36,146 bases of DNA from a virus (IMGVR_UViG_3300005573_000192:1-36146), one strand, 5' to 3'; numbered from the stretch's first letter, positions 14,645-27,730 are shown. Made by a program: numbers and translations. The notes: generated by a model from the letters alone, not told the origin.

Positions 14645-14754
14645 CCTCATCTGTCCGATTATGTCTGAGACTGTCGCCCCGAGCGCCTTATTAAAAGGAA
14701 CATTTTAAAAATAATGCAAAAATAGTGCAAAATAATGCATATTTTTGACGATTT

Positions 14755-14807
14755 TGTTCAAAAGTACTTGCCTTTTAAACAGAAAAGAACGATAATAGAG
14801 AATAGAT
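14755..14807 (+). promoter_or_regulatory. Promoter repeat copy 1 (53-bp identical core)
   Basis: TTGCCT(14768)-N17-GATAAT(14791), AT-rich upstream tract, AAGGAGG downstream. Confidence 0.85.
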
Positions 14808-14829
14808 AGAACGAAGAAAGGAGGCCATC

Positions 14830-15033
14830 ATGAATCAGTGCCAGATTAGCGCAGAGATTGTTGCCGAGAGGAACGGCATATCTTTGGTCAAGATGCATAC
14901 TCGATTTGGAACAATCGAGTACTTTGTTGAAGACAAAGTCCATCTCGACGACATTGGGCTGCCGAGCATTGTGTGCCAGTGCGGCGACATTTATGAGGCT
15001 GTCAAAGCGTTTCGGAAACTTTCAGACAGGTGA
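14830..15033 (+). CDS. Small early protein, paralog of 15803-16000
   Basis: Own promoter and RBS; shares LVK, GT(I)EY and YEAVKAF with the paralog. Confidence 0.75.
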   Translation: MNQCQISAEIVAERNGISLVKMHTRFGTIEYFVEDKVHLDDIGLPSIVCQCGDIYEAVKAFRKLSDR

Positions 15034-15070
15034 AAATAATGCAGAAAAAGTGCAAAAATATGCAGATTTC

Positions 15071-15123
15071 TGTTCAAAAGTACTTGCCTTTTAAACAGAA
15101 AAGAACGATAATAGAGAATAGAT
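15071..15123 (+). promoter_or_regulatory. Promoter repeat copy 2
   Basis: TTGCCT(15084)-N17-GATAAT(15107). Confidence 0.85.
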
Positions 15124-15152
15124 AGAACGAAGAAAGAAGAAAGGAGAACGTT

Positions 15153-15646: not shown

Positions 15647-15727
15647 TGAGTTGATTGCTCGGGCAGACAACGGGTCTGCCCGACAGGCAAAAAATAATGC
15701 AAAATAATGCGTATTTTTGACGATTTT

Positions 15728-15780
15728 TGTTCAAAAGTACTTGCCTTTTAAACAGAAAAGAACGATAATAGAGAATAGAT
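15728..15780 (+). promoter_or_regulatory. Promoter repeat copy 3
   Basis: TTGCCT(15741)-N17-GATAAT(15764). Confidence 0.85.
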
Positions 15781-15802
15781 GGAACGAAGAAAGGAGGACG
15801 TT

Positions 15803-16544: not shown

Positions 16545-16674
16545 TATGTGGAATCCTAATGATTGGCCAGACCCGCCGGTGGAGCAAGAGTCCCAGGCAG
16601 CTCGAGCGCAGCGCGAGGAAGCGCAGCTCGACGCTGCCGATGACCAACGATGGAATAGAACAAAGGAGACTAGG

Positions 16675-17715
16675 ATGAACAAGAACGAGAACGGAGTGGC
16701 AGCATTTTTGGAATTGGCCGGGCACGTTGGGTCGGTGCGAGGCATTGGAACCCTGTACAACTATGTCTGCAAGAGCAATAACACTCTTGCGGCAATGGAC
16801 GGCAAGCAATTCCTTATGCTGGTGGCCTCTTCCCTAGAAGCGATTGACGATGGCGTATACGAGCTGGCAACGAGCAGAGCTTACAGCCAGCTCGCGAAAA
16901 AATCTGCAATGAGCACTATGGAATTCTCAGATACTTACTTCTTGATGAGCTTGGACTTCCTTTTGGCTATGCCTATCACCAAAAGCCAGGCCGAAAGAAT
17001 GCTCATAGCATATACGTTCGCCAGCACCGACGATACCAGACCATACATAGAAGGTGTGCATTTTGACAGTCCATACGCTGTCGCCACGGACGGTCGCCAG
17101 ATGTACGCAGCCCTTGGATTCGATGGATTCCCCGCTGTGACACTTCCCCACACTAGGCTGATTGATATCATGCTGAAGAAAGGTGTGAACATCAGATTTA
17201 TGATGCATGGCGAGTATGCGGCATTCAGATTCGACTATCGTGACAGCACATTCTTGTATGTGGTGAAAGCGATTGATGGTCACTTCCCGAATTGGCGCCT
17301 CGTGGTCCCCGCCGGTCATACCAAACTATTGAATCTGTGGGCTGATGGTAAGCAACCCGTTCGGAAGCTTGCAGCTCCGAGTGTCGCTGAGTGGCACGCC
17401 ATTCATGCCGTTTACAGAAAGCTGGGGAAGGAAGTGCGAGACTATGCAAAAATTTCCATTCGCCCGAAAGAGCAGTCTGTGGTCGAAGTGAGGAATGAAT
17501 ACGACGACATGGTATTAGGCACCATGACATGGAACGGCTTCAAAAATGACGCCGCTGATGAAGCCCACAATGTCCTGTACATCAATGAAGAATTCTTCAA
17601 TCATGCCCTCACCGTTCTGCCCGTTGAATCTATCACTCACACAGACTGGTTGCATGCCATCGTGTTCAATTATACTGATGACAGTTTTGCCATCGTGATG
17701 CCATTTTCACGGTGA
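16675..17715 (+). CDS. dnaN: DNA polymerase III beta-clamp homolog (divergent)
   Basis: ASTDDTRPYIEGV, VATDGR, IDGHFPNWRLVVP and IVMP motifs. AAGGAG RBS at ATG 16675; the frame is open from 16546. Confidence 0.75.
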   Translation: MNKNENGVAAFLELAGHVGSVRGIGTLYNYVCKSNNTLAAMDGKQFLMLVASSLEAIDDGVYELATSRAYSQLAKKSAMSTMEFSDTYFLMSLDFLLAMPITKSQAERMLIAYTFASTDDTRPYIEGVHFDSPYAVATDGRQMYAALGFDGFPAVTLPHTRLIDIMLKKGVNIRFMMHGEYAAFRFDYRDSTFLYVVKAIDGHFPNWRLVVPAGHTKLLNLWADGKQPVRKLAAPSVAEWHAIHAVYRKLGKEVRDYAKISIRPKEQSVVEVRNEYDDMVLGTMTWNGFKNDAADEAHNVLYINEEFFNHALTVLPVESITHTDWLHAIVFNYTDDSFAIVMPFSR

Positions 17716-17730: not shown

Positions 17731-17907
17731 ATGACCGAAGAAGAAGCGAGATTGCGCGCTGCGCTCATGGACATTGCCGACACAGCCCAGGCAGCGATAC
17801 AACGGTGGCAAGCCGTTGGATGGCATTATTTGACAGAGGACGAAGCTGCGTTGTATGATATTTTTACCCGGTGCAACAATGCCTTACTGTATGAGGCACC
17901 AAAATGA
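17731..17907 (+). CDS. Hypothetical 58-aa protein (not in the ORF track)
   Basis: AAGGAG RBS, MTEEEARLRAAL...EAPK, ATGA overlap with the next gene. Confidence 0.65.
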   Translation: MTEEEARLRAALMDIADTAQAAIQRWQAVGWHYLTEDEAALYDIFTRCNNALLYEAPK

Positions 17908-18146: not shown

Positions 18147-18343
18147 TGTGCAATGAGCTGCGCCGAATAATAGACTGGGCGAACGCAGCTGCGGTGTATC
18201 TCGATGAGTACAGAGAGGAACTGGTTGAGCACGGAACAGATTACGATGACCCCGCAGTTGATGACATCACTCAGTTGATACATGAAGCAGAGGACAACGA
18301 ATGGATTGATGATTATGACACACGTCATAAGGAGGAATTATGA
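18143..18343 (+). CDS. Small acidic hypothetical protein
   Basis: GGAGG RBS, ATGA overlaps, very Asp/Glu-rich. Confidence 0.6.
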   Translation: MMCNELRRIIDWANAAAVYLDEYREELVEHGTDYDDPAVDDITQLIHEAEDNEWIDDYDTRHKEEL

Positions 18344-18582
18344 GACAAGCATTAGGTAGACCACCCATCTACACCGCCAAGTCTAAGGTGTATCTGTGTG
18401 CAACAGGTCAAACCAAGCTGCAGTCTGGCAGTGACCGCCGTGCGATAATCAACGCATTGGTGGACAATGGCGGCAGCATGACACTCGGAGAATTGGACGC
18501 TCGGTTCGGATTCTCCGTACGCAGCCGTGTGTTCGCGCTCCAGCGTTCTGGCTGGGTGCGCATTGAAGGAGGCACACCGTGA
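18340..18582 (+). CDS. Putative winged-helix DNA-binding protein
   Basis: RAIINAL..GSMTLGEL..LQRSGWV pattern; AAGGAGG RBS. Confidence 0.55.
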   Translation: MRQALGRPPIYTAKSKVYLCATGQTKLQSGSDRRAIINALVDNGGSMTLGELDARFGFSVRSRVFALQRSGWVRIEGGTP

Positions 18583-19553
18583 TTATAGGAGCCGGCTTGG
18601 CAGGCATGATTGCCGCTTACGCTTTCCCGACCCACGAGCTGTGGGAGTCGCGCAGCCGAGAACATGTAGAGCATCAAGCATTACTTCGGTTCCGGACTCC
18701 GGCCATCTCTGACATCACGGGCATTCCGTTTCAGAAAGTGGCCGTGCACAAAGGTATTTGGTGGAACGGTGGCTGGGTCAGCCCCACTATTGACGCCTGT
18801 AATATGTACTCCATGAAAGTCATTGGCCGCCTCGCTGACCGTTCTGTGTGGGACATCGCACCGTGCGTCCGCTGGGTACCACCACACGACTTCCACACGC
18901 GGCTGTGTGATGCACTGGGCAATCGTGTGCATTGGAATTCGCCGGTGTCTTTCTTGGATATGGCGAAGCATAATACCCGTGACGAGTTCATCATCAGTAC
19001 CATGCCACTGCCCGTCATGGCGAAAGGCATGCTCGGTTTTGAGCATGAGTTTCACTCGGCCAAGATTATCACCACCAGCGCCGAAGTGCCAAACAGTGGC
19101 GTATATCAAACGGTATATTTCCCATCGGACGCATATGGCTTGTATAGAGCCACATTGGCTGGAACCCAGCTCACGTGCGAGTGGACTGGTGATGAGTCTG
19201 CAGACGTTGGAGACCTTGACCTTGCATGTAGAGACGTTGCCGAGGCATTCGGCTATGAGCCCCTCTTTGACGCCGTCAGTCAGTCGTTAGCTAATTTTCA
19301 CACACAAACGTTTGGCAAGTTGCTACCGATTGATGAGAATTTGCGTAAGACGCTGGTGGCGCAGCTTACTCAGCGCTGCGGTATATATTCGCTGGGAAGG
19401 TTTGCCACATGGCGTAACATTCTGCTGGACGACGTCATTCATGACGCCGCGGTGATAAAACGGTTGGCTTCAGCGTCGTTCTACGAACGCCAGATTGCTG
19501 CTTTTGCACCGGCCACCGAGGAGGAATCCAATGCCTACAGTGTCGCTGATTGA
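18579..19553 (+). CDS. FAD-dependent oxidoreductase, UDP-galactopyranose mutase/HemY-like
   Basis: IIGAGLAG dinucleotide-binding motif, ISTMPL, C-terminal SLGRFATWR. Confidence 0.8.
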   Translation: MIIGAGLAGMIAAYAFPTHELWESRSREHVEHQALLRFRTPAISDITGIPFQKVAVHKGIWWNGGWVSPTIDACNMYSMKVIGRLADRSVWDIAPCVRWVPPHDFHTRLCDALGNRVHWNSPVSFLDMAKHNTRDEFIISTMPLPVMAKGMLGFEHEFHSAKIITTSAEVPNSGVYQTVYFPSDAYGLYRATLAGTQLTCEWTGDESADVGDLDLACRDVAEAFGYEPLFDAVSQSLANFHTQTFGKLLPIDENLRKTLVAQLTQRCGIYSLGRFATWRNILLDDVIHDAAVIKRLASASFYERQIAAFAPATEEESNAYSVAD

Positions 19554-20307
19554 TTTTACTGGCAAAGGCACACTCAATCCTGTGTGGCATGCCGCTGACA
19601 TTTTGATTTTCACCAAGAGCACCAGACTCACCATGGCGCCCGAAGGATTGGAACAGATTGAACGTTTGCCCGAAGAAGCAAAGCTCAAAGAATTGGAACA
19701 GATGGCTAAAACTATTCCCAGCAGCTGGGAGTTTGTGGACTTGACCTTTCTGTTTTCTGGTGTTACGAGAGCCTGCGCTCAACAGATTACCCGCACGAGG
19801 AATGCTAGTTATTCCATGCAATCTCAACGAATAGTTAATATGAGTGACGCTGTCGTGACCAACCCGTTTCCGCATCCAGCGCTTCATGGCGAAGCACCCG
19901 TTTCTGTGCAAAGCTACAAGTTGTTCAAGACATTTCAACAATGCTCAAACGCAGCGTTGAAAGGTTACCAAACATTAATAGAACAAGGAGCAGACGCTCA
20001 AGACGCTCGCGGCTTGTTGCCCATGAATACCCAATGCAATCTGGTAGCCAAGTACAATCTGCGTGCGTTCGTTGAGTTGGTGCGTTCTAGGTCGTCGCTG
20101 CGTACTCAGCAGGAATATGCCCAAATAATAACACAAGCTGTGGACTGCGCCAAAGCGGTGTGGCCATGGGTTGCGCTATTCCTCAAGAATCCGAAAGATG
20201 AAGCCATCAAAGATTTGGAAGCGATAGCCAAAGAGCTGGGTGTGGTTCCAGGCACAGGAGCCGGCTGGAGAATTGCCAAAGCGCTCGACATGCTGCGTAA
20301 AGCCTAA
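19531..20307 (+). CDS. thyX: Divergent flavin-dependent thymidylate synthase homolog
   Basis: RTR-x7-S variant of RHR-x7-S, DARGLLP, NLR..R..Q.E; GGAGG RBS before ATG 19531. Confidence 0.85.
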   Translation: MPTVSLIDFTGKGTLNPVWHAADILIFTKSTRLTMAPEGLEQIERLPEEAKLKELEQMAKTIPSSWEFVDLTFLFSGVTRACAQQITRTRNASYSMQSQRIVNMSDAVVTNPFPHPALHGEAPVSVQSYKLFKTFQQCSNAALKGYQTLIEQGADAQDARGLLPMNTQCNLVAKYNLRAFVELVRSRSSLRTQQEYAQIITQAVDCAKAVWPWVALFLKNPKDEAIKDLEAIAKELGVVPGTGAGWRIAKALDMLRKA

Positions 20308-20322
20308 AAGGAGGCCAATGAT

Positions 20323-21162
20323 ATGTATAGAACTGTGGTGGTGTGTGACTTGGACGGTTGCTTGTCTGACGACCGATGGCGCCGACACTGGTTGCCTGCT
20401 GCTGGCGCAACCGGTGACGCTTATGACAACTACCATGAGCGGCACCTGGCAGACAAGCCTGTGCCCGGTGTGGTAGATGAGTTAATGCGAGATTTGCGCG
20501 GTTCCTCTACAGGAATAACAACGCAGGAGAATTATCTGCTCCTCGTCACCGGTCGTCCTGAAAAGTTCAGAGGAACTACCCAACAATGGATTCGTGACGA
20601 GTTGCCCGGTGTCGAATTCACCGTGCTGATGAGGCCACCCGAGTGCACATTCCATTCGCCCGCTCTGAAGCAGTGGCTCATTGCTCAGTGGCTGTCTCAG
20701 CACTCGTATGGCGCTGACAGCTGGACTAGGATTATAGCGGCATATGACGACAGGCAGGATGTGCTGGACGCTTATCCTATACCAGACGACCGAAAGAAGC
20801 TCAGAGCACTGCCGTATGGCTCACCCGAAGCTCCTAGCGGCTTGCTCGCTAAAGCGCAAGCCGTTCGTGACGCTGCCGCAGATGTTCCGGCTATATTACA
20901 GAGCATGGCGAGCACGTTTCAAGCACGCAATGCGGTGTATGGCAGCAACTACATGAACGTTGCCCCTGTCATTAAAGTGCTGTGGCCTGATGGCGTGCCT
21001 TCAGCACTGGTGACCACTACTGCATGGCATCTGTTTGAGTTGATTGTCATAAAAATGACTCGGTTCGCTGTCAGCGGATTGCGTCATAAAGATTCTATCC
21101 ATGACATAGCGGTGTATGCTGCCATGATTGAGGCAATTATCGCCAAGGAGGAACGGCTATGA
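20323..21162 (+). CDS. HAD phosphatase fused to an all-alpha nucleotide-modification-associated domain (DUF1599/DUF6378-like)
   Basis: DLDG, TGR and DDRQD motifs; C-terminal RNAVYG..K..R..DSIHDIAVY. Confidence 0.75.
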   Translation: MYRTVVVCDLDGCLSDDRWRRHWLPAAGATGDAYDNYHERHLADKPVPGVVDELMRDLRGSSTGITTQENYLLLVTGRPEKFRGTTQQWIRDELPGVEFTVLMRPPECTFHSPALKQWLIAQWLSQHSYGADSWTRIIAAYDDRQDVLDAYPIPDDRKKLRALPYGSPEAPSGLLAKAQAVRDAAADVPAILQSMASTFQARNAVYGSNYMNVAPVIKVLWPDGVPSALVTTTAWHLFELIVIKMTRFAVSGLRHKDSIHDIAVYAAMIEAIIAKEERL

Positions 21163-21395
21163 GCTTGCAAAAAGAGGAAGAATGGTATCACAAGGTTGAA
21201 GACAGTCCGGTGGGACCCTGTCAGTATCAAGTGTGGGATGCAGAGAAGAAATGCTTGCGCCCGTGCGGCGAACCAGGCCATGTGTGGACGGATGGTTGGC
21301 GCCCCACAGGCACTCCGAATGCCATGCTATGCGATGTGCACGGTGCGTTTGTATCTGACGCCGTGCGAGGCACGAAGCCGAGGAGAGAAGTCTAA
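21159..21395 (+). CDS. Small Cys/His-rich hypothetical protein
   Basis: Coupled to both neighbours; C..CxxxC..CxxH ligands. Confidence 0.55.
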   Translation: MSLQKEEEWYHKVEDSPVGPCQYQVWDAEKKCLRPCGEPGHVWTDGWRPTGTPNAMLCDVHGAFVSDAVRGTKPRREV

Positions 21396-22072
21396 TGAGT
21401 GGTGGAAAAATTGCCGTTGTGACTGGCAGTGAAAGCGGTTTGGGAGCTGCCATAGCAGTTGCCCTAGAGAACAAAGGTTATGTCGTCGTACGCTATGACT
21501 TACGCATGGGACGTGATGTGCGCAACCCACACCTGGAATCCCTGCCCAGTGAAGTTGATGTGCTGGTGAATTGCGCCGGTGTCAATCGCATTGGGTGGCT
21601 TCAGGATGTCACAGAACGTGACTGGGACGAAGTAATGGACACGAATGCCAAAGGCATCTTTCTGATGACTCAAGCGCTGCTCCCCGCGCTAAAAGCAGCA
21701 AAGGGCACGGTGCTCAACATCGTGAGCAATGCGGCACACATGCCAATGCGGTGCTCTGCTGCATACAATGCCAGCAAAGGTGCGGCACTCATACTCACCA
21801 AGCAGCTGGCTAGAGAGCTGGCGCCTGACATCACAGTATTCTCCATTTCTCCGAATAAAATCGCAGACACAGGAATGAGCCGCAGCATTGATTCGCAAGT
21901 GATGCAGACACGCGGCTGGACTGCCGAACAAGCGCGAAACTATCAGCTGAGCTCATTGCTCACCGGCGAAGAAACGCCAGTCGATTGCATTGCAGAGTTT
22001 GTCGGCTTTTTGCTACAGGACAAACGCCATCACAAATATCTTGCTGGGTGTGATATCCCCTATGGAGCTTGA
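21395..22072 (+). CDS. Short-chain dehydrogenase/reductase (classical SDR)
   Basis: TGSESGLG, NCAG, catalytic Ser and YNASK motifs. Confidence 0.92.
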   Translation: MSGGKIAVVTGSESGLGAAIAVALENKGYVVVRYDLRMGRDVRNPHLESLPSEVDVLVNCAGVNRIGWLQDVTERDWDEVMDTNAKGIFLMTQALLPALKAAKGTVLNIVSNAAHMPMRCSAAYNASKGAALILTKQLARELAPDITVFSISPNKIADTGMSRSIDSQVMQTRGWTAEQARNYQLSSLLTGEETPVDCIAEFVGFLLQDKRHHKYLAGCDIPYGA

Positions 22073-22551
22073 TTATGGTAACATTCAAAATTGAACAAGT
22101 TGCTCTTTATCCACGTGACCCTGAATCTGCGAAAGAATTGCTCATTGCCATGGGCATGAGTGACTGGGTGACTGACCATGTTAGTGCCAAAGGTTCTGTG
22201 CGCAAGTTGCGCAACGTGGACAATGAAGCGGATTTGTCGTTCAACTACAACGGCATGAACGCGGCTGGTGAATTGGAAGTGCTTCACTACACACGTGGAG
22301 CACACTGGATGCACGGTATGCGCCCCAGGGTTAGTCACATCGGCATGCATTGCACGGAGCAAGAGTTGACTGAATGGTACAGCTTCTTTGCAGGACGAGG
22401 CATCCCCGTTGCCCAAGAAGTCTACACCAGAGCGCACACCAATCCGGCTATCGCAGGCAAACGCAAATATCACTATGTGATTTTCGACACGTACGACATT
22501 CTTGGCGTCGACGTGAAGTTTATAGTTCGTCATGACGTATCTGATTTTTGA
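22069..22551 (+). CDS. VOC-fold (glyoxalase/methylmalonyl-CoA epimerase-like) protein
   Basis: IEQVAL, ELEVL, SHIG and terminal VKFI strands. Confidence 0.65.
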   Translation: MIMVTFKIEQVALYPRDPESAKELLIAMGMSDWVTDHVSAKGSVRKLRNVDNEADLSFNYNGMNAAGELEVLHYTRGAHWMHGMRPRVSHIGMHCTEQELTEWYSFFAGRGIPVAQEVYTRAHTNPAIAGKRKYHYVIFDTYDILGVDVKFIVRHDVSDF

Positions 22552-23065
22552 CACTGAGACCACTGGGCTCATTCTGCATCCGGCTGCCAAGGATGAGCTC
22601 CAGCCTCAAATTATTGAGTGGGGTGGCTTGCTAGTGGACGAGCGAGGCAATGAGCTCCAGGAGCTTGATGTCCTCATCAACCCTGGCAAGCCCATCCCCG
22701 AGCACATCACAAGTATCACCGGCATCACAGACGCTGATGTGGCCAATCAGCCACCATTCCCGGTAGTGGCTCAGATGTTGAAACCGTTGTTTGCCGCCGC
22801 GGACGTGCTCGTGGCACACAATTTGCCGTTCGACCATACCATGATGGAGCTAGAGCTGCGCCGAGCGCACTTGTTGGATGATTGGCCTTGGCCAAAGTTT
22901 AATATGTGCACCGTTCAAGAGCACGCAGAGGAGTGGGGCTATCGCCCAAAGCTCACCGAGCTGTATAATTTCTACACAGGTCACCCGTTGGCGCAATCAC
23001 ACCGGGCATTAGACGACGTGCGCGCGCTGAAAGCCGTGTGCCTCGCGGCAGGACTACTGCAATGA
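22532..23065 (+). CDS. dnaQ: DEDDh 3'-5' exonuclease (DnaQ/epsilon-like)
   Basis: DTETTG, HNLPFD and HRALDD motifs. Confidence 0.92.
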   Translation: MTYLIFDTETTGLILHPAAKDELQPQIIEWGGLLVDERGNELQELDVLINPGKPIPEHITSITGITDADVANQPPFPVVAQMLKPLFAAADVLVAHNLPFDHTMMELELRRAHLLDDWPWPKFNMCTVQEHAEEWGYRPKLTELYNFYTGHPLAQSHRALDDVRALKAVCLAAGLLQ

Positions 23066-25851
23066 GCAAGAAAAATGATTCAGCGTTTCCCCAGCTGCGG
23101 TTGCGTTCTGAGTACAGCTTCCGGACTGCCTATGGCAGCATAGAGCAAGTAGTTGCCGCAGCAAAAGCAGCTGGCGCCACTGCGGCAGGTCTGGTGGACA
23201 CGTCTGGCACGTGGGGACACGTTCACTGGCAGAAGGTTGCTTTGGAGCACGGCATAGAGCCTTTGTTTGGCGCCGAGTTTTCAATCGTGTGCGATGATGG
23301 CCGCCGGCGAACCTACTGGGCATTGGCACAATCACTGCCCGCATTTTATCATTACTCTAGCAATCCACCCCAAAGCCAGTCTGAGATTGCAGCGCGCAAG
23401 AGTGGCCTCATAATCTTCGCCGGTGCAGCATTAACCGACCCCGCAGCGATAGATTACATTGACATCAACCCTCGCTCCAGACTGCGCACGGAGCATGCAT
23501 TGGCACTAGCCAAAAAGATTAACAAGCCGGTAGTAATCACGAGTGACGCAGATTATCCCACACCGGCAGACAGAGAGCGGTTCCTGGCCTGGGACGATTC
23601 GTTAAAAATGACGCCCCAGCACATTCTCACCAAATCCGAGCTGCGCGCAGCTCTGTGGTACGTTCCCACCGCAACGTTCAACCGTGCCGTGAGCAATACC
23701 ATAGCAGCGGCTGCCGCAGCTTCCGGGTGTAGGCTGCACCGGGCACCTTTGATTAGCGTACCAGGAGATTTGCGTGCGTTGGTCATGGCTGGAAAAACAG
23801 AACGGTTGGCCTCTGGGCAGATTAAAGCATGGACTGATGAATATGAAGCGCGGCTCAAACGTGAGCTGGAATTGATTTACGCGAAGAAGTTTGACAGTTA
23901 CTTTTTGATGGTTGCCGATATGATATCTTGGGCAAAGCAGCACATGCTTGTGGGTCCTGGCAGAGGCAGCTCCGCCGGCTCATTGGTATGTTATTTGTTG
24001 CACATCACTGAAGTCGACCCGCTGGTATATAATTTGGTGTTCGAACGGTTCATTGATGTGAATCGAGCAGATTTGCCAGACATTGACAGCGATTTCAATG
24101 ACCAAAAGCGCGATATGGTGTTTCATTATCTTGAAGAAAAATATGGCAAGGAGAACACCGCCCGTATTGGGTCAGTGAATCGGCTCAAGCCCCGCTCCGT
24201 GCTCGCGCACGTTGGCAAGCGGCTAGGCATCCCCCTCGGCGCAACGTTCTCCGTGACCAATGTACTGATTGAATACAGCTCTGGCGATAGCCGCTATGGC
24301 AAAGGATTGGAGGACACATTAGCGAACACCCAGCCTGGCAGAGACTTCCTGATTAGGTACCCCGAAGCAGCTGTCATGACCGAGCTGGAGAACCATGCGT
24401 CGCATGCCGGAGTGCATGCGGCAGGATTTATAGTGTCGAACACGCCTGTAATAGATTATTGCACGGTACGAGATGGTGTGGCTCAAATAGACAAAAAGGA
24501 CGCCGAGGAGCTTAATCTTTTGAAGATGGACATTTTGGGCTTGAGAACGCTTGGCGTTATTGAGGACGCTGCGTGCATCACGGCTCAAGAGCTTTACAAT
24601 TTGCGGTTGGACGACCCAAACGTATTCAAAATATTCAATGACAGGAAATTCTCTGGCATATTCCAGTTCGAAGGTGCAGCGCAGCGCCGAGTGTCTATAC
24701 AGATTCCCATTAAAGAATTTCAGCAGATTGACCACATCACGGCATTGGCTCGTCCCGGTCCCCTGGGTGGTGGCGCAGCAGGCACGTACATCAATCGTAA
24801 CGCCGGCCGAGAGCCTGTTGTGTACAAGCACCCCTCCATGGCACACTATCTCGCAGACACGCAAGGTGTGGTATTGTACCAGGAACAAGTCATGCGCATT
24901 GTCAAAGAGCTGGGTGATTTTTCCTGGGAGGACACATCCGTCATTCGCAAGGCGATGTCCGGTCGCAAGGGCAAAGAGTTCTTTGACCGACACGGCGAAA
25001 AATTTGTGGCAGGAGCCGCACGCCATGGCATAGACGCGGCAACGGCAGCAACCATTTGGAACGAAATAGTGAGCTTTGGCGCATGGGGCATGAATAAAAG
25101 CCACACGGTGTCGTATGCTGTGATTAGCTATTGGTGTGCCTATTTGAAGTGTTACCACACATTGGAATACGCTGCGGCTTGTCTGCGCAATGCGAAAGAT
25201 GACGACCAAACCATGGAGTTGCTGCGAGAGCTGCGCGCGGAAGGTGTGCGCTACATCCCGTTTGACCCAGAACGGTCAGACATTGATTGGCGAGTGGTCA
25301 ATGGCCAGCTCATTGGCGGATTCAAAAATCTGGTAGGTGTCGGTCCCATGAAAGCCGCACGGTATGTGGCTTCCAAGCCGTTGTCCGAACAAGATAAGGC
25401 AGCTGTAGCCAAGTGCAAAGTCAAATTTGCTGACCTCACGCCCGCGCATACACTGTGGGGTGATGTGTATGCGCACCCGGAACGATTCAACATCAACGGG
25501 TGTGTCAAGGAGTTCGCCGACTTGATGGATTTTGAAGAGGCTGTAGTGGTGTGCCAGCTCGTGCGCCAAGAGCGCCGTGATGAGAACGAAGCAGTCAGAG
25601 CCCACAAGCGCGGCTACCTAAAATCTGGCAATACATTATTCCTTGATGCATTCGTGGTGGATGACTCCGTCAGCAAGCCTGTGGTGCTACGCATCAAGCC
25701 CTGGCAATGGTTCTCTATCGGAGTACGCATGGCAGACAAAGCTGTGCCAAAGAAGGACTGGTTCCTCGTGCGCGGCAAGTGGTTGGCGCAATTTTCGATG
25801 ATGACTGTGATAAAAATAAAATGCCTGACTAACAAGGAGATGTTCTCATGA
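23062..25851 (+). CDS. dnaE: DNA polymerase III alpha (family C), degenerate PHP domain, short C-terminus
   Basis: GPGRGSSAGS, PDIDSD, HAAG, KMDILGL, RPGP, YQEQ and NKSH motifs. Confidence 0.95.
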   Translation: MSKKNDSAFPQLRLRSEYSFRTAYGSIEQVVAAAKAAGATAAGLVDTSGTWGHVHWQKVALEHGIEPLFGAEFSIVCDDGRRRTYWALAQSLPAFYHYSSNPPQSQSEIAARKSGLIIFAGAALTDPAAIDYIDINPRSRLRTEHALALAKKINKPVVITSDADYPTPADRERFLAWDDSLKMTPQHILTKSELRAALWYVPTATFNRAVSNTIAAAAAASGCRLHRAPLISVPGDLRALVMAGKTERLASGQIKAWTDEYEARLKRELELIYAKKFDSYFLMVADMISWAKQHMLVGPGRGSSAGSLVCYLLHITEVDPLVYNLVFERFIDVNRADLPDIDSDFNDQKRDMVFHYLEEKYGKENTARIGSVNRLKPRSVLAHVGKRLGIPLGATFSVTNVLIEYSSGDSRYGKGLEDTLANTQPGRDFLIRYPEAAVMTELENHASHAGVHAAGFIVSNTPVIDYCTVRDGVAQIDKKDAEELNLLKMDILGLRTLGVIEDAACITAQELYNLRLDDPNVFKIFNDRKFSGIFQFEGAAQRRVSIQIPIKEFQQIDHITALARPGPLGGGAAGTYINRNAGREPVVYKHPSMAHYLADTQGVVLYQEQVMRIVKELGDFSWEDTSVIRKAMSGRKGKEFFDRHGEKFVAGAARHGIDAATAATIWNEIVSFGAWGMNKSHTVSYAVISYWCAYLKCYHTLEYAAACLRNAKDDDQTMELLRELRAEGVRYIPFDPERSDIDWRVVNGQLIGGFKNLVGVGPMKAARYVASKPLSEQDKAAVAKCKVKFADLTPAHTLWGDVYAHPERFNINGCVKEFADLMDFEEAVVVCQLVRQERRDENEAVRAHKRGYLKSGNTLFLDAFVVDDSVSKPVVLRIKPWQWFSIGVRMADKAVPKKDWFLVRGKWLAQFSMMTVIKIKCLTNKEMFS

Positions 25852-26267
25852 GAAAGAAAGAACAGCTGTTGTGGGACGCATTGAAGCGCAATGCTCCCGA
25901 ATCATTATGGCTGCAACGGGTGGAGAATGTGGTTGGTGAAGGCATGCCGGATGTGTACATTGGTGCAACGGGTGCGTGGCTAGAGTTGAAAGCGCCGCCG
26001 CGCATCCCTGTTCGAGACAGCACCCCGCTGCTAGGTGCGCAAGATGGCTTGCGTGTATCGCAGATTAATTGGCACCTCAAGAATGCATCAATTCTGACAG
26101 CGCCGCAATCATACATTTTGATTAGAACCACTCAAAAAGAGCTGTTGCTATTGCCAGGTCGCTTGGCCGGCATTGTGAACACTTGCTCATTGAGTGCATT
26201 GCGCGCAGCCAAGCTGAACCAAGCCACTACTACCGAATGGGATGAGATTGTGAGGATTTTGCAATGA
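25848..26267 (+). CDS. PD-(D/E)xK nuclease (VRR-NUC/resolvase-like)
   Basis: E..GMPDV..WLELK..Q..W motif. Confidence 0.8.
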   Translation: MRKKEQLLWDALKRNAPESLWLQRVENVVGEGMPDVYIGATGAWLELKAPPRIPVRDSTPLLGAQDGLRVSQINWHLKNASILTAPQSYILIRTTQKELLLLPGRLAGIVNTCSLSALRAAKLNQATTTEWDEIVRILQ

Positions 26268-27730
26268 AAACAAAGCCCATGAGCCACCAAGTTGTTGGTT
26301 GTCGCCGATTGGCAGCTGCAGACGCCTTCGCCGTTGGAGCAGAGCAGGGAACGGGTAAAACGTGGATGTTACTGGCGGACGCGGAAGCCCGCTGGAAGCG
26401 CAACGAAGTTGATGCACTGCTGGTGATAGCTCCGAATGGCGTCCATGTAAACTGGGTGGTCAGAGAGATTCCTGCGCATCTGGAAGTGCCTTATACTGCC
26501 ACATTCTGGTTGAGCACTCCATCGAAAAAGCATCAAGCTTTATTGCAACGGCAGCTCGCCACCGCATTGGAGCCGCCGCGCAAGTTGGTGATACACGCGA
26601 TGAACATAGACGCAGTCAATACCAAAGCCGGCTTGGCTCATGCTGAAAAGTTCATTGCAACATTCGCTCCCGGCAGAGTAATCATGGTGGTGGACGAAAG
26701 CCACACCATCAAGAACATAGACGCCAAGCGCACCCAACGAGTCATTGCCCTCGGTAAGCAAGTTGCTATACGCCGCATTGCCAGCGGCACACTGGTGGCT
26801 AATTCGCCGCTCGATTTGTTCAGTCAGTATGAGTTTTTGGCTAGTGGTCTGCTTGGCACGCGCAGCTATAGAGCATTCGTTTCAGAGTATGCCGAGTTAA
26901 TGCCGGCCAGCTCCGCTTTGGTGCGAAACATAGTGCAGCGCACGGGTGCTCGTGGTGTGCCTCAGATTGTTGCTAAAAACAAAGATGGCACCTTGCGCTT
27001 CCGCAATTTAGCCAAGCTCAGCGGCTTGATGGCTCCTCACACATTCCGGGTCACGAAAGATGAATGTCTTGATTTGCCCGAAAAAATATATCAGACATAT
27101 TATTTTGACCTTGAGCCACAGCAACGTGCGATGTATGACCAAGTTAAAAGTGAACGCAACTGGGTGCGTGACGACGGGTCGATTGATGCATTCACCGCAC
27201 TCACTGTCATCACTAAGCTGCGCCAGATTACATCAGGATTTATATTGGTGGACGGAGCACCCACCACACTGGCATATTCCAAGCCGCGCATCGAGGCATT
27301 GCTATCAATTGTTGAGGAGTATCCCGGTCCCATGATTGTGTGGGCAACCTTTCAAGAGGAGATAAAGCAAATAGCCAAAGCGCTACGAGACACCGGTGAA
27401 ACGGTGCGAGAATATTATGGCGCAACGAACGTTGCTAACCGAACAACAGCCATCAATGACTTCCAATCAGGCAAGGTGCGCATTTTCCTGGGCAATCCCG
27501 CCGCGGCTGGACTGGGCTTGACGCTCACTGCCGCCGAAACTGCCGTGTATTACAGCTCATCATTCTCATTGTCTGAACGGCTTCAGTCTGAGGACAGATG
27601 TCATCGCATCGGCACTACCCACCACGTTGTGTACATTGACATCGTAGGCCGAGACACGATTGACGAGCGCATTGCCCATGCATTACAAACGAAAAAGCTC
27701 ACAGCAGAAATGATTATGGCTGGACTGTAG
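26264..27730 (+). CDS. SNF2-like SF2 helicase
   Basis: GTGKT, DESH, SGT, GLGLTL and QSEDRCHRIG motifs. Confidence 0.92.
   Translation: MKTKPMSHQVVGCRRLAAADAFAVGAEQGTGKTWMLLADAEARWKRNEVDALLVIAPNGVHVNWVVREIPAHLEVPYTATFWLSTPSKKHQALLQRQLATALEPPRKLVIHAMNIDAVNTKAGLAHAEKFIATFAPGRVIMVVDESHTIKNIDAKRTQRVIALGKQVAIRRIASGTLVANSPLDLFSQYEFLASGLLGTRSYRAFVSEYAELMPASSALVRNIVQRTGARGVPQIVAKNKDGTLRFRNLAKLSGLMAPHTFRVTKDECLDLPEKIYQTYYFDLEPQQRAMYDQVKSERNWVRDDGSIDAFTALTVITKLRQITSGFILVDGAPTTLAYSKPRIEALLSIVEEYPGPMIVWATFQEEIKQIAKALRDTGETVREYYGATNVANRTTAINDFQSGKVRIFLGNPAAAGLGLTLTAAETAVYYSSSFSLSERLQSEDRCHRIGTTHHVVYIDIVGRDTIDERIAHALQTKKLTAEMIMAGL

What the first reader, a model, noticed from the sequence alone, without database searches (positions are those of the whole stretch)
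18579..25851. Candidate new pre-replicative DNA base-modification pathway coupled to a phage DnaE
Seen: one overlapping operon of UGM-like flavoprotein, ThyX variant, HAD/all-alpha fusion, small Cys protein, SDR, VOC protein, DEDDh exonuclease and DnaE. Known: SDR, VOC and UGM-like enzymes are sugar/small-molecule redox, isomerase or lyase enzymes and are not needed for dTMP supply; phages that swap a base usually cluster a synthase, a nucleotide-pool hydrolase and their own polymerase. I saw none of the hallmark genes of known pathways (ThyA-type hydroxymethylase, hmU-DNA kinase, DNA glycosyltransferase, Que/DpdA, PurZ, TET/JBP). Inference: the ThyX homolog adds a non-methyl, perhaps sugar-derived, group to C5 of dUMP; SDR, VOC and the flavoprotein build or tailor it; the HAD fusion trims it or depletes the canonical nucleotide; DnaE incorporates it. 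The dihydroxypentyl-uracil of Bacillus phage SP-15 shows such chemistry exists, but the product here is unknown.
Basis: partly seen in the sequence, partly recalled or inferred. Interest (0 to 1): 0.92.

Follow-up and report, generated by a model that had tools for sequence, protein, structure and literature searches.

The report
Phage TG-thymine sugar-modification gene cassette
Next to its own DNA polymerase, this uncultured phage carries a widespread phage enzyme set that likely attaches a sugar to thymine in TG sites of its DNA, a modification already measured in related therapeutic Pseudomonas phages but not yet assigned to genes; as a group, phages with this set almost never avoid TG-containing restriction sites while avoiding others.

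Summary
The operon is real. Its core (sugar-mutase-fold flavoprotein, altered ThyX, HAD phosphatase, DUF6378, DEDDh exonuclease, DnaE) recurs in 44-47 of 47 distinct viral loci and in Pbunavirus/Wifcevirus phages. SDR+VOC are an optional pair (25 of 47); the Cys ORF is not conserved. ThyX keeps its dUMP/FAD arginines, but 0 of 63 homologues keep folate-site His53 or Tyr91. Pbunaviruses F8 and 14-1 share the core and carry a sugar-bearing thymidine at TG sites (362/390 Da; Yee 2025 preprint), genes unassigned. Sequence evidence ties the two: cassette loci strongly avoid 1 of 187 TG-containing palindrome cases versus 113 of 409 others; ten control genomes 19 of 119 versus 60 of 268. Two complete Pbunavirus-like genomes lacking flavoprotein and ThyX lack the footprint. 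The window itself is uninformative on it. TG specificity with ordinary T elsewhere argues against a purely pre-replicative route; a pool step plus a DNA-level step is likelier. SP-15 is an analogy, not an orthologue. No chemistry is shown. The scan noted this cassette before on five other genomes. Verdict: new biosynthetic variant of phage thymidine hypermodification, about 0.8 likely in outline.

The parts
18340..18582 (+).
   Evidence: Homologue directly upstream in 30 of 47 loci; weak AbiEi_4/MarR hits in two homologues; alignment; no match in F8 or 14-1
18579..19553 (+). Core: FAD-binding protein of UDP-galactopyranose-mutase-like fold; predicted to work through a flavin-N5 adduct; best candidate for the TG-specific step
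   Evidence: 32 invariant residues in 121 homologues; 1744 homologues; Atlas clusters 96-100% viral; 37% identical to F8 gp65
19531..20307 (+). Core: ThyX variant; keeps R88/R90/S98/R100/R187 (T. maritima R78/R80/S88/R90/R174); His53->I62, His79->T89, Tyr91->I101
   Evidence: roles of H53/Y91/S88/R174 from passages of PMC11940539 and PMC8316439
20323..21162 (+). Core: PNKP-type HAD phosphatase (DxDG, T, K, DD motifs intact by eye) fused to an all-alpha DUF6378-like domain; one ORF in 21 of 47 loci, separate ORFs in most others
21159..21395 (+). Cys-rich 78-aa ORF; not part of the conserved cassette
   Evidence: 1 of 47 groups; in frame with the SDR, without a stop, in relative L007
21395..22072 (+). 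Accessory: classical SDR (TGxxxGxG, NCAG, S, YxxxK intact); likely sugar carbonyl reductase/dehydrogenase
   Evidence: present in 25 of 47 loci
22075..22551 (+). Accessory: VOC-fold protein, methylmalonyl-CoA-epimerase-like; invariant Q8, E68, H88, K148; likely epimerase/isomerase
   Evidence: never seen without the SDR in loci that span the slot
22532..23065 (+). Core: DEDDh 3'-5' exonuclease (proofreading subunit)
   Evidence: 46 of 47 loci
23062..25851 (+). Core-linked: phage DnaE (PHP, NTPase, finger domains)
   Evidence: 52% identical to F8 gp55 over 796 aa; also occurs without flavoprotein and ThyX
25848..27730 (+). Downstream nuclease-like ORF and SNF2 helicase of the same transcription unit (replication module, not modification)

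Best explanation
This is a conserved phage gene cassette that likely puts a sugar-derived group on C5 of thymine at TG sites in two stages: the altered ThyX is predicted to build a C5-substituted uracil nucleotide from dUMP without folate, and the mutase-fold flavoprotein would then place or fix it at TG in the DNA. Shown: the genes, their folds, their tight co-occurrence, the loss of the ThyX folate-side residues, and a TG-protection footprint in cassette-bearing phages as a class. Inferred: ThyX uses its flavin N5 to take up a sugar aldehyde in place of the formaldehyde equivalent (or releases the exocyclic methylene to a sugar hydroxyl); the HAD removes a phosphate from the product or its sugar; DUF6378 handles a nucleotide (pyrophosphohydrolase-like); SDR and VOC, or in other phages a methyl-, carbamoyl- or sulfotransferase, tailor the sugar; DnaE and its exonuclease copy the bulky template. 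The purpose is likely protection from restriction. Odds: about 0.8 that the cassette makes a modified T; about 0.5 for this two-stage form.
For: Co-occurrence: ThyX 47, HAD 45, DUF6378 46, exonuclease 46, DnaE 44 of 47 dereplicated flavoprotein loci; flavoprotein in 45 of 45 ThyX-variant loci with >=5 kb upstream (not dereplicated); flavoprotein+ThyX in 28 of 35 DnaE-seeded loci. ThyX: 0 of 63 keep His53 or Tyr91, 1 of 63 keeps His79; R88, R90, R100, R187 in 63 of 63 (mapping); His53 stacks the folate pteridine and Y91 mutation slows flavin oxidation 1000-fold; ThyX accepts free formaldehyde through a flavin-N5 carbinolamine, and UGM forms a flavin-N5 sugar adduct. F8 and 14-1 carry 362/390 Da T derivatives at TG; of the genes the window shares with the 42 kb of F8 examined, flavoprotein, ThyX and HAD-DUF6378 are the only ones recognisable as small-molecule enzymes. 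Footprint: strongly avoided 6-bp palindromes (E>=8, O/E<0.35) are 1 of 187 TG-containing versus 113 of 409 others in 43 cassette loci, the same with SDR (0/108 vs 67/229) and without (1/79 vs 46/180); 19 of 119 versus 60 of 268 in ten control genomes; 0 of 8 versus 18 of 23 in M6, a known T-hypermodified phage. Per-locus ratio median 1.40 in 63 dereplicated cassette loci (49 above 1.2), 0.98 in 39 terminase-seeded loci, 1.14 in 15 PolA-bearing kin (cassette > PolA kin p=3e-4 on 43 vs 15). Complete genomes G001 and G004, sharing 20 and 22 of 42 F8 proteins but with no flavoprotein or ThyX match, give 1.07 and 1.10 against 1.45 for F8. Other group-transfer enzymes occupy the same region in other loci. 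Wifcevirus phages, which have the full SDR+VOC form, resist nearly all tested RM systems with no known mechanism.
Against: No enzyme has been assayed and no gene has been knocked out; the phage is uncultured. The window itself shows no TG contrast (ratio 1.03; 0 of 12 versus 0 of 16, no power); its avoided words GATC (0 vs 114), GGCC and GGNCC lack TG, which fits but does not prove. The footprint has background: phiKMV ratio 1.37, G006 1.27, G005 1.25, GC-rich terminase loci up to 1.98, and terminase loci 2/178 vs 32/666; terminase controls are AT-rich (GC 0.39) and loci within a clade are not independent. TA- and TT-containing sites are also seldom avoided in cassette loci (1/25, 2/55), so only TG versus TC/no-T is resolved. 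The TG assignment in F8 rests on ten restriction enzymes in a preprint. F8 and 14-1 make different products with the same cassette genes at 80-97% identity. The flavoprotein family is not basic (median pI 7.0) and no DNA-binding domain was found in it.
Confidence: 0.5

Rival explanations
1. Purely pre-replicative: flavoprotein and ThyX build a sugar-dUMP in the pool, it becomes a triphosphate, and the phage DnaE plus exonuclease keep it only in front of G.
For: Cassette lies directly upstream of exonuclease and DnaE in 44-46 of 47 loci; the UGM fold normally acts on a free nucleotide sugar; SP-15 makes dihydroxypentyl-dU before DNA synthesis, has a divergent ThyX beside an SDR, and shows a neighbour bias.
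Against: Near-complete modification at TG with ordinary T elsewhere has no polymerase precedent that I know of (recalled); no dNMP kinase recognised; the same DnaE clade exists without the cassette.
Confidence: 0.25
2. Not a DNA-modification pathway: a nucleotide-supply or cofactor cassette (for example a folate-independent dTMP synthase with helpers); the Pbunavirus modification comes from other genes.
For: ThyX can use free formaldehyde; HAD and all-alpha hydrolases are common phage pool enzymes, and DUF6378 also sits beside PolA in cassette-less phages; the window shows no TG footprint.
Against: Does not explain the class-wide TG footprint and its absence in G001/G004, the invariable pairing of flavoprotein and ThyX variant, or the methyl-, carbamoyl- and sulfotransferases in the same region.
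Confidence: 0.15
3. The cassette modifies DNA, but in this SDR+VOC lineage the base or sequence context differs from the Pbunavirus one.
For: ThyX is only 29-31% identical to F8/14-1; the window's sub-clade has Met in place of Gln at position 96 (15 of 63); the window lacks the footprint.
Against: SDR-bearing loci show the TG footprint as strongly as the rest; the uracil-binding Arg174 equivalent is invariant.
Confidence: 0.1

Closest known systems
TG-context hypermodified thymidine of Pbunavirus F8 (362 Da) and 14-1 (390 Da); Yee et al., bioRxiv 10.1101/2025.03.31.646159 (PMC12191111)
   Same: F8 and 14-1 carry flavoprotein, ThyX variant, HAD-DUF6378, exonuclease and DnaE in the same order and show the TG footprint.
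   Different: The parts read assign no genes; Pbunaviruses lack SDR and VOC; the window is a siphovirus-type genome (HK97-type capsid, Dit) at 29-52% protein identity.
Canonical flavin-dependent thymidylate synthase ThyX (T. maritima TM0449, M. tuberculosis ThyX)
   Same: Thy1 fold; R78, R80, S88, R90, R174 equivalents kept.
   Different: His53, His79 and Tyr91 replaced across the clade; clade-specific N-terminal K29-x-T31-R32 motif; always paired with the flavoprotein in the loci examined.
UDP-galactopyranose mutase (GR2-type flavoenzyme with N5-sugar adduct)
   Same: Best structural match, Z 20.2 over 302 residues.
   Different: 18% identity, no Pfam or PDB sequence match, shorter, almost only viral; amine oxidases and monooxygenases follow at Z 13-17, so the fold fixes no reaction.
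5-hmdU-based thymidine hypermodification (M6, ViI, PhiW-14, PaMx11; PMC5889632, PMC8989533)
   Same: Pool step plus DNA-level step; genes clustered near the polymerase; variable tailoring enzymes, including a DNA-acting flavoprotein (PaMx11 gp47).
   Different: No ThyA-type hydroxymethylase, 5-hmdU DNA kinase or aGPT-PPlase match in the window; sugar rather than amino-acid group; DnaE rather than PolA.
Bacillus phage SP-15 5-(4,5-dihydroxypentyl)uracil (PMC5977210)
   Same: A second, divergent Thy1 protein (gp130) directly after a FabG-like SDR (gp129); by hand arithmetic 362 Da equals dihydroxypentyl-dU plus two oxygens.
   Different: gp129 and gp130 score about 9 bits against clade profiles (hhalign probability 3%); no flavoprotein, VOC or DUF6378 match found in SP-15; PolA-type polymerase.

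Membership tests
Canonical ThyX (dTMP synthase) | Thy1 fold | tested here: met
   PF02511 E 6e-29; clade profile hits 23 PDB ThyX sequences
Canonical ThyX (dTMP synthase) | RHR motif with His79 | tested here: not met
   RTR in the window; His in 1 of 63
Canonical ThyX (dTMP synthase) | Folate-stacking His53 and Tyr91 | tested here: not met
   I62 and I101; 0 of 63 keep either; SP-15 gp9 keeps both by eye as a phage control
Canonical ThyX (dTMP synthase) | dUMP/FAD residues R78, R80, S88, R90, R174 | tested here: met
   R88, R90, S98, R100, R187; the four Arg in 63 of 63, position 98 is T in 35, S in 25, A in 3
Canonical ThyX (dTMP synthase) | dUMP to dTMP with CH2-THF and NADPH | not testable with these tools
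   Needs assay or thyA complementation
UDP-galactopyranose mutase | GR2 FAD-binding fold | tested here: met
   GxGxxG; Z 20.2, rmsd 3.7
UDP-galactopyranose mutase | Sequence-level family match | tested here: not met
   No Pfam hit; no PDB hit with protein or profile
UDP-galactopyranose mutase | UDP-sugar-binding residues and mutase activity | not tested
   The structure tools gave ranges, not residue pairs; activity needs assay
Pbunavirus TG-thymidine hypermodification | Shared core genes in order | tested here: met
Pbunavirus TG-thymidine hypermodification | Protection of TG-containing sites | tested here: inconclusive
   Met for cassette loci as a class; no power in the window
Pbunavirus TG-thymidine hypermodification | Modified nucleoside in virion DNA | not testable with these tools
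   Uncultured; needs LC-MS
5-hmdU-based pathways (M6/ViI/PhiW-14) | ThyA-type hydroxymethylase, 5-hmdU DNA kinase, aGPT-PPlase | tested here: not met
   No tblastn match of M6 gp51, 54, 55, 58 in the window; the genome may be incomplete
SP-15 DHPU pathway | Orthologues of gp129/gp130 | tested here: not met
   9.0 and 9.7 bits; hhalign probability 3%
Classical SDR | TGxxxGxG, NxAG, Ser, YxxxK | tested here: met
VOC epimerase/glyoxalase | VOC fold | tested here: met
   Foldseek E 1.4e-8, TM 0.66
VOC epimerase/glyoxalase | Four metal ligands (H/Q, E, H, E; recalled) | tested here: inconclusive
   Invariant Q8, E68, H88, and K148 where an acid is expected; placed by eye

The most novel reading that the evidence does not exclude
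A new route to DNA hypermodification run by two flavin-N5 enzymes: a folate-free ThyX joins a sugar carbon directly to C5 of dUMP (pentose with reduction gives 362 Da, hexose minus water gives 390 Da), HAD and DUF6378 release the modified base, and the mutase-fold flavoprotein acts as a flavin-dependent DNA transglycosylase that swaps it for thymine at TG, as DpdA does for guanine (recalled). This would explain TG specificity, ordinary T elsewhere and the missing dNMP kinase, and would equip hundreds of phage lineages, including therapeutic Pbunaviruses.
Probability: 0.15. Interest if true: 0.95.

Novelty: new variant of a known kind. Interest (0 to 1): 0.74.

Why it matters
Pbunaviruses are among the most used therapeutic Pseudomonas phages. 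Their DNA was found in 2025 to carry a sugar-modified thymidine, with no known modification genes to account for it. This cassette names three or four genes to knock out or express, and the TG footprint plus natural cassette-less relatives (G001, G004) give sequence support beyond gene neighbourhood. If right, ThyX has been repurposed from a methylase to a sugar-carbon transferase, a large viral flavoprotein family (1744 clusters) gains a function, and the variable SDR/VOC, methyl-, carbamoyl- and sulfotransferase genes predict a set of undescribed bases. It would also offer TG-specific DNA labelling or protection enzymes.

Tried and rejected
SP-15 orthology: profile searches and hhalign negative; these searches also missed the more distant flavoprotein candidates of Gumball and Sparcetus, so absence in SP-15 is weak. 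Mapping the 362/390 difference to gene content: F8 and 14-1 have the same cassette genes; differences cluster in the HAD-DUF6378 linker and DUF6378 domain, with one flavoprotein change beside the invariant DRS motif; not decisive. Fusion search for the flavoprotein: one partial hit only. Complex of two ThyX chains with the flavoprotein: no answer. Sequencing runs: no RNA holder listed; nothing laid. PDB sequence searches for flavoprotein and VOC: nothing. Nmad1 label for the all-alpha domain: not seen, DUF6378 instead. TG footprint in the window: none, for lack of 6-mer avoidance. A control group 'PolA kin with M6-type hmU genes' was empty. Prokaryote genome scan: 5 hits, all metagenome-assembled contigs; the scan covered 34 of 64 parts. 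Literature: searches found no paper assigning these genes; Iyer et al. 2013 (NAR) and the journal version of Yee et al. were not held, and either, or their supplements, could already name the cassette. Figures and fragmentation spectra of Yee et al. could not be seen, so O-linked versus C-linked sugar stays open. Mass arithmetic is by hand, not from a call.


Full report
Observation. The window is one 36,146-bp viral contig with HK97-type head, siphovirus-type tail and a replication module. All eight ORFs of the finding are present on the + strand and closely packed; one junction (ThyX-HAD) is a 15-nt gap. Pfam confirms ThyX, SDR, DEDDh exonuclease and DnaE. The two ORFs without Pfam hits were folded: the flavoprotein (pLDDT 92.7) matches UDP-galactopyranose mutase best (Z 20.2, next 16.6), and the 158-aa protein (pLDDT 96) matches methylmalonyl-CoA-epimerase-type VOC proteins. 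The all-alpha domain is DUF6378-like.

Distribution. The flavoprotein matches 362 GenBank phage records, 292 of them Pseudomonas phages, and the VOC protein 55. Aeromonas phage Gekk3-15 and Wifcevirus Bas98 have flavoprotein, ThyX, HAD, SDR, VOC, exonuclease and DnaE in this order; Pbunavirus Banzai, F8 and 14-1 lack SDR and VOC. The best 80 of 460 IMG/VR loci fell into 58 groups; in the 47 long enough to judge, ThyX was present in 47, HAD 45, DUF6378 46, exonuclease 46, DnaE 44, SDR and VOC together 25 and neither 22, the upstream winged-helix-like ORF 30, the Cys ORF 1. Seeding with the ThyX variant found the flavoprotein in 45 of 45 loci with 5 kb upstream (not dereplicated, and the seed patterns carry the variant motif); SDR occurred without VOC in 6 of those loci and 1 DnaE-seeded locus, VOC never without SDR. 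Seeding with DnaE found flavoprotein and ThyX in 28 of 35, so the polymerase can stand alone. Of 62 unassigned ORFs (those of about 110 aa or more) from the cassette region, 6 were methyltransferases (all in loci without SDR/VOC), 2 carbamoyltransferases, 2 Nmad5, 5 pyrimidine-dimer-glycosylase-like and 3 MazG-like; a Vibrio phage has a sulfotransferase in the slot.

ThyX is altered. Aligned to T. maritima ThyX (numbering after removing the tag, recalled), the window keeps R78, R80, S88, R90 and R174 equivalents but has Ile for His53, Thr for His79 and Ile for Tyr91. Among 63 homologues none keeps His53 or Tyr91 and one keeps His79. Passages of PMC11940539 and PMC8316439 state that His53 stacks the folate pteridine, that Tyr91 is conserved and its mutation slows catalysis by two to three orders of magnitude, that ThyX can take free formaldehyde as a flavin-N5 carbinolamine, and that UGM forms a flavin-N5 sugar adduct. 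Normal folate-dependent dTMP synthesis is therefore unlikely, while uracil-C5 chemistry is likely kept (inference).

A product is known in relatives. Yee et al. (PMC12191111; section 8 and passages read, figures not seen) report nucleosides of 362 Da in F8 and 390 Da in 14-1, replacing about a quarter of T, read as a tetritol and a cyclic aldopentose derivative, at TG by restriction pattern; the text says Pbunaviruses lack known modification genes. T followed by G is 27% of T in both genomes. By hand arithmetic 362 fits tetritol-O-hmdU or tetrahydroxypentyl-dU, and 390 fits pentosyl-hmdU or dU plus hexose minus water. The window shares with the 42 kb of F8 examined primase, two Pam3-like proteins, one unknown ORF, helicase, exonuclease, DnaE, flavoprotein, ThyX and HAD-DUF6378. 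Wifceviruses resist nearly all tested RM systems with no known protection (PMC11990801, section 16 read).

A sequence test links cassette and TG protection. If T in TG is shielded, TG-containing restriction sites need not be purged. Observed/expected counts (Markov) of 6-bp palindromes were 0.97 for TG-containing versus 0.67 for others in F8, and 0.91 versus 0.66 pooled over 57 cassette groups; 36 of 38 loci of 14 kb or more had a ratio above 1. Strongly avoided cases were 1 of 187 versus 113 of 409 in 43 cassette loci, alike with and without SDR, against 19 of 119 versus 60 of 268 in ten control genomes (phiKMV, LUZ24, T7, T1 and six IMG/VR genomes with no flavoprotein match) and 0 of 8 versus 18 of 23 in M6. 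Two complete Pbunavirus-like genomes with the same DnaE but no flavoprotein or ThyX match (G001, G004) gave ratios 1.07 and 1.10, against 1.45 in F8. Against this: phiKMV gives 1.37, G006 1.27 and G005 1.25; 6 of 15 PolA-bearing kin loci exceed 1.2; terminase-seeded controls are AT-rich and show a weak trend of their own (2/178 vs 32/666); TA and TT sites are not resolved from TG; and related loci are not independent. The window itself has almost no 6-mer avoidance (ratio 1.03), so it is uninformative; it lacks GATC altogether (0 vs 114 expected) and avoids GGCC and GGNCC, which argues against blanket T replacement and is neutral on TG.

Mechanism. ThyX acts on a free nucleotide, so a pool step is likely. 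A strict TG pattern with ordinary T elsewhere, and no recognised dNMP kinase among the 43 window and 21 F8 proteins scanned, points to a second, DNA-level step. The flavoprotein is the best candidate: it is always paired with the ThyX variant, and a flavoenzyme acting on DNA is known (PaMx11 gp47; passages of PMC8989533). This step is inferred only; the family is not basic. SDR and VOC would tailor the sugar in about half of the lineages. I give about 0.8 to 'the cassette makes a modified T', divided as 0.5 two-stage, 0.25 purely pre-replicative with polymerase selection; 0.15 goes to a non-modifying role and 0.1 to a different base or context in this lineage.

Known systems. It works like the 5-hmdU pathways (pool step, DNA step, variable tailoring; passages of PMC5889632 and PMC8989533) but lacks their defining genes. 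SP-15 has a divergent second ThyX beside an SDR and makes its pentyl-uracil before DNA synthesis (passages of PMC5977210; the 1978 papers seen only as reference titles; locus), yet its proteins score at noise level against the clade profiles. It is not a canonical ThyX or UGM by sequence features. Passages of PMC13506937, PMC12390725 and PMC13326640 add no gene assignment. Seven literature searches found none either; two relevant papers were not held. The scan's earlier notes describe the same cassette on five other genomes, three of them with the same Pbunavirus link; my reading was recorded before seeing them.

Verdict. Real, widespread and probably the missing biosynthetic cassette for TG-specific sugar-thymidine; a new variant of phage thymidine hypermodification with possibly new flavin chemistry; unproven at the bench. 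Interest 0.74.

Noticed in passing
window 14709-14823, 15025-15139, 15682-15796: Three copies of a ~115-nt repeat in the divergent intergenic region, each with a TTGCCT-17-GATAAT promoter-like site; probably repeated early promoters.
   Followed up: partly
window 1-36146: GATC is entirely absent (0 vs 114 expected); GGNCC 12 vs 60 and GGCC 69 vs 155: strong host restriction pressure on sites without TG.
   Followed up: partly
window 17830-17859: Near-consensus sigma-70 promoter-like site (11 of 12) upstream of the small ORFs that lead into the cassette.
   Followed up: no
window 16546-17715: 389-aa ORF with weak similarity to a polymerase processivity-factor family (phrog_947, E 2e-8); possible phage sliding clamp for the DnaE, seen only in close relatives.
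   Followed up: no
L177 5594-8844 (G005): Same DnaE clade with a different cassette: YfbR-like HD nucleotidase, unknown ORF, nucleoside 2-deoxyribosyltransferase, phosphoribosyltransferase and DUF6378; possibly another base-modification pathway.
   Followed up: partly
L413-L420 (G001, G004): Complete Pbunavirus-like genomes without flavoprotein or ThyX match: natural cassette-less controls.
   Followed up: yes
L004 6779-18426, L010 6620-14766: Microbacterium phage Sparcetus and mycobacteriophage Gumball carry a diverged version: oxidoreductase, phosphatase, SDR (plus VOC, DUF6378-like domain and a GT2 glycosyltransferase, or a methyltransferase), DnaE and a ThyX also lacking His53 and Tyr91.
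   Followed up: partly
L220, L227, L249, L253: PolA-bearing kin with DUF6378 downstream of the polymerase and a partial TG pattern, without the cassette; unexplained.
   Followed up: partly
L009 38729-41910 (SP-15 genes 127-130): A nucleoside 2-deoxyribosyltransferase, SDR and divergent ThyX (RHR and Tyr91 lost, by eye) lie together; a better candidate for DHPU synthesis than the hydroxymethylase role proposed in PMC5977210.
   Followed up: partly
L013 29894-31090 vs L090: F8 gp70 is the most divergent of 42 F8 proteins compared with 14-1 (57% identity).
   Followed up: no
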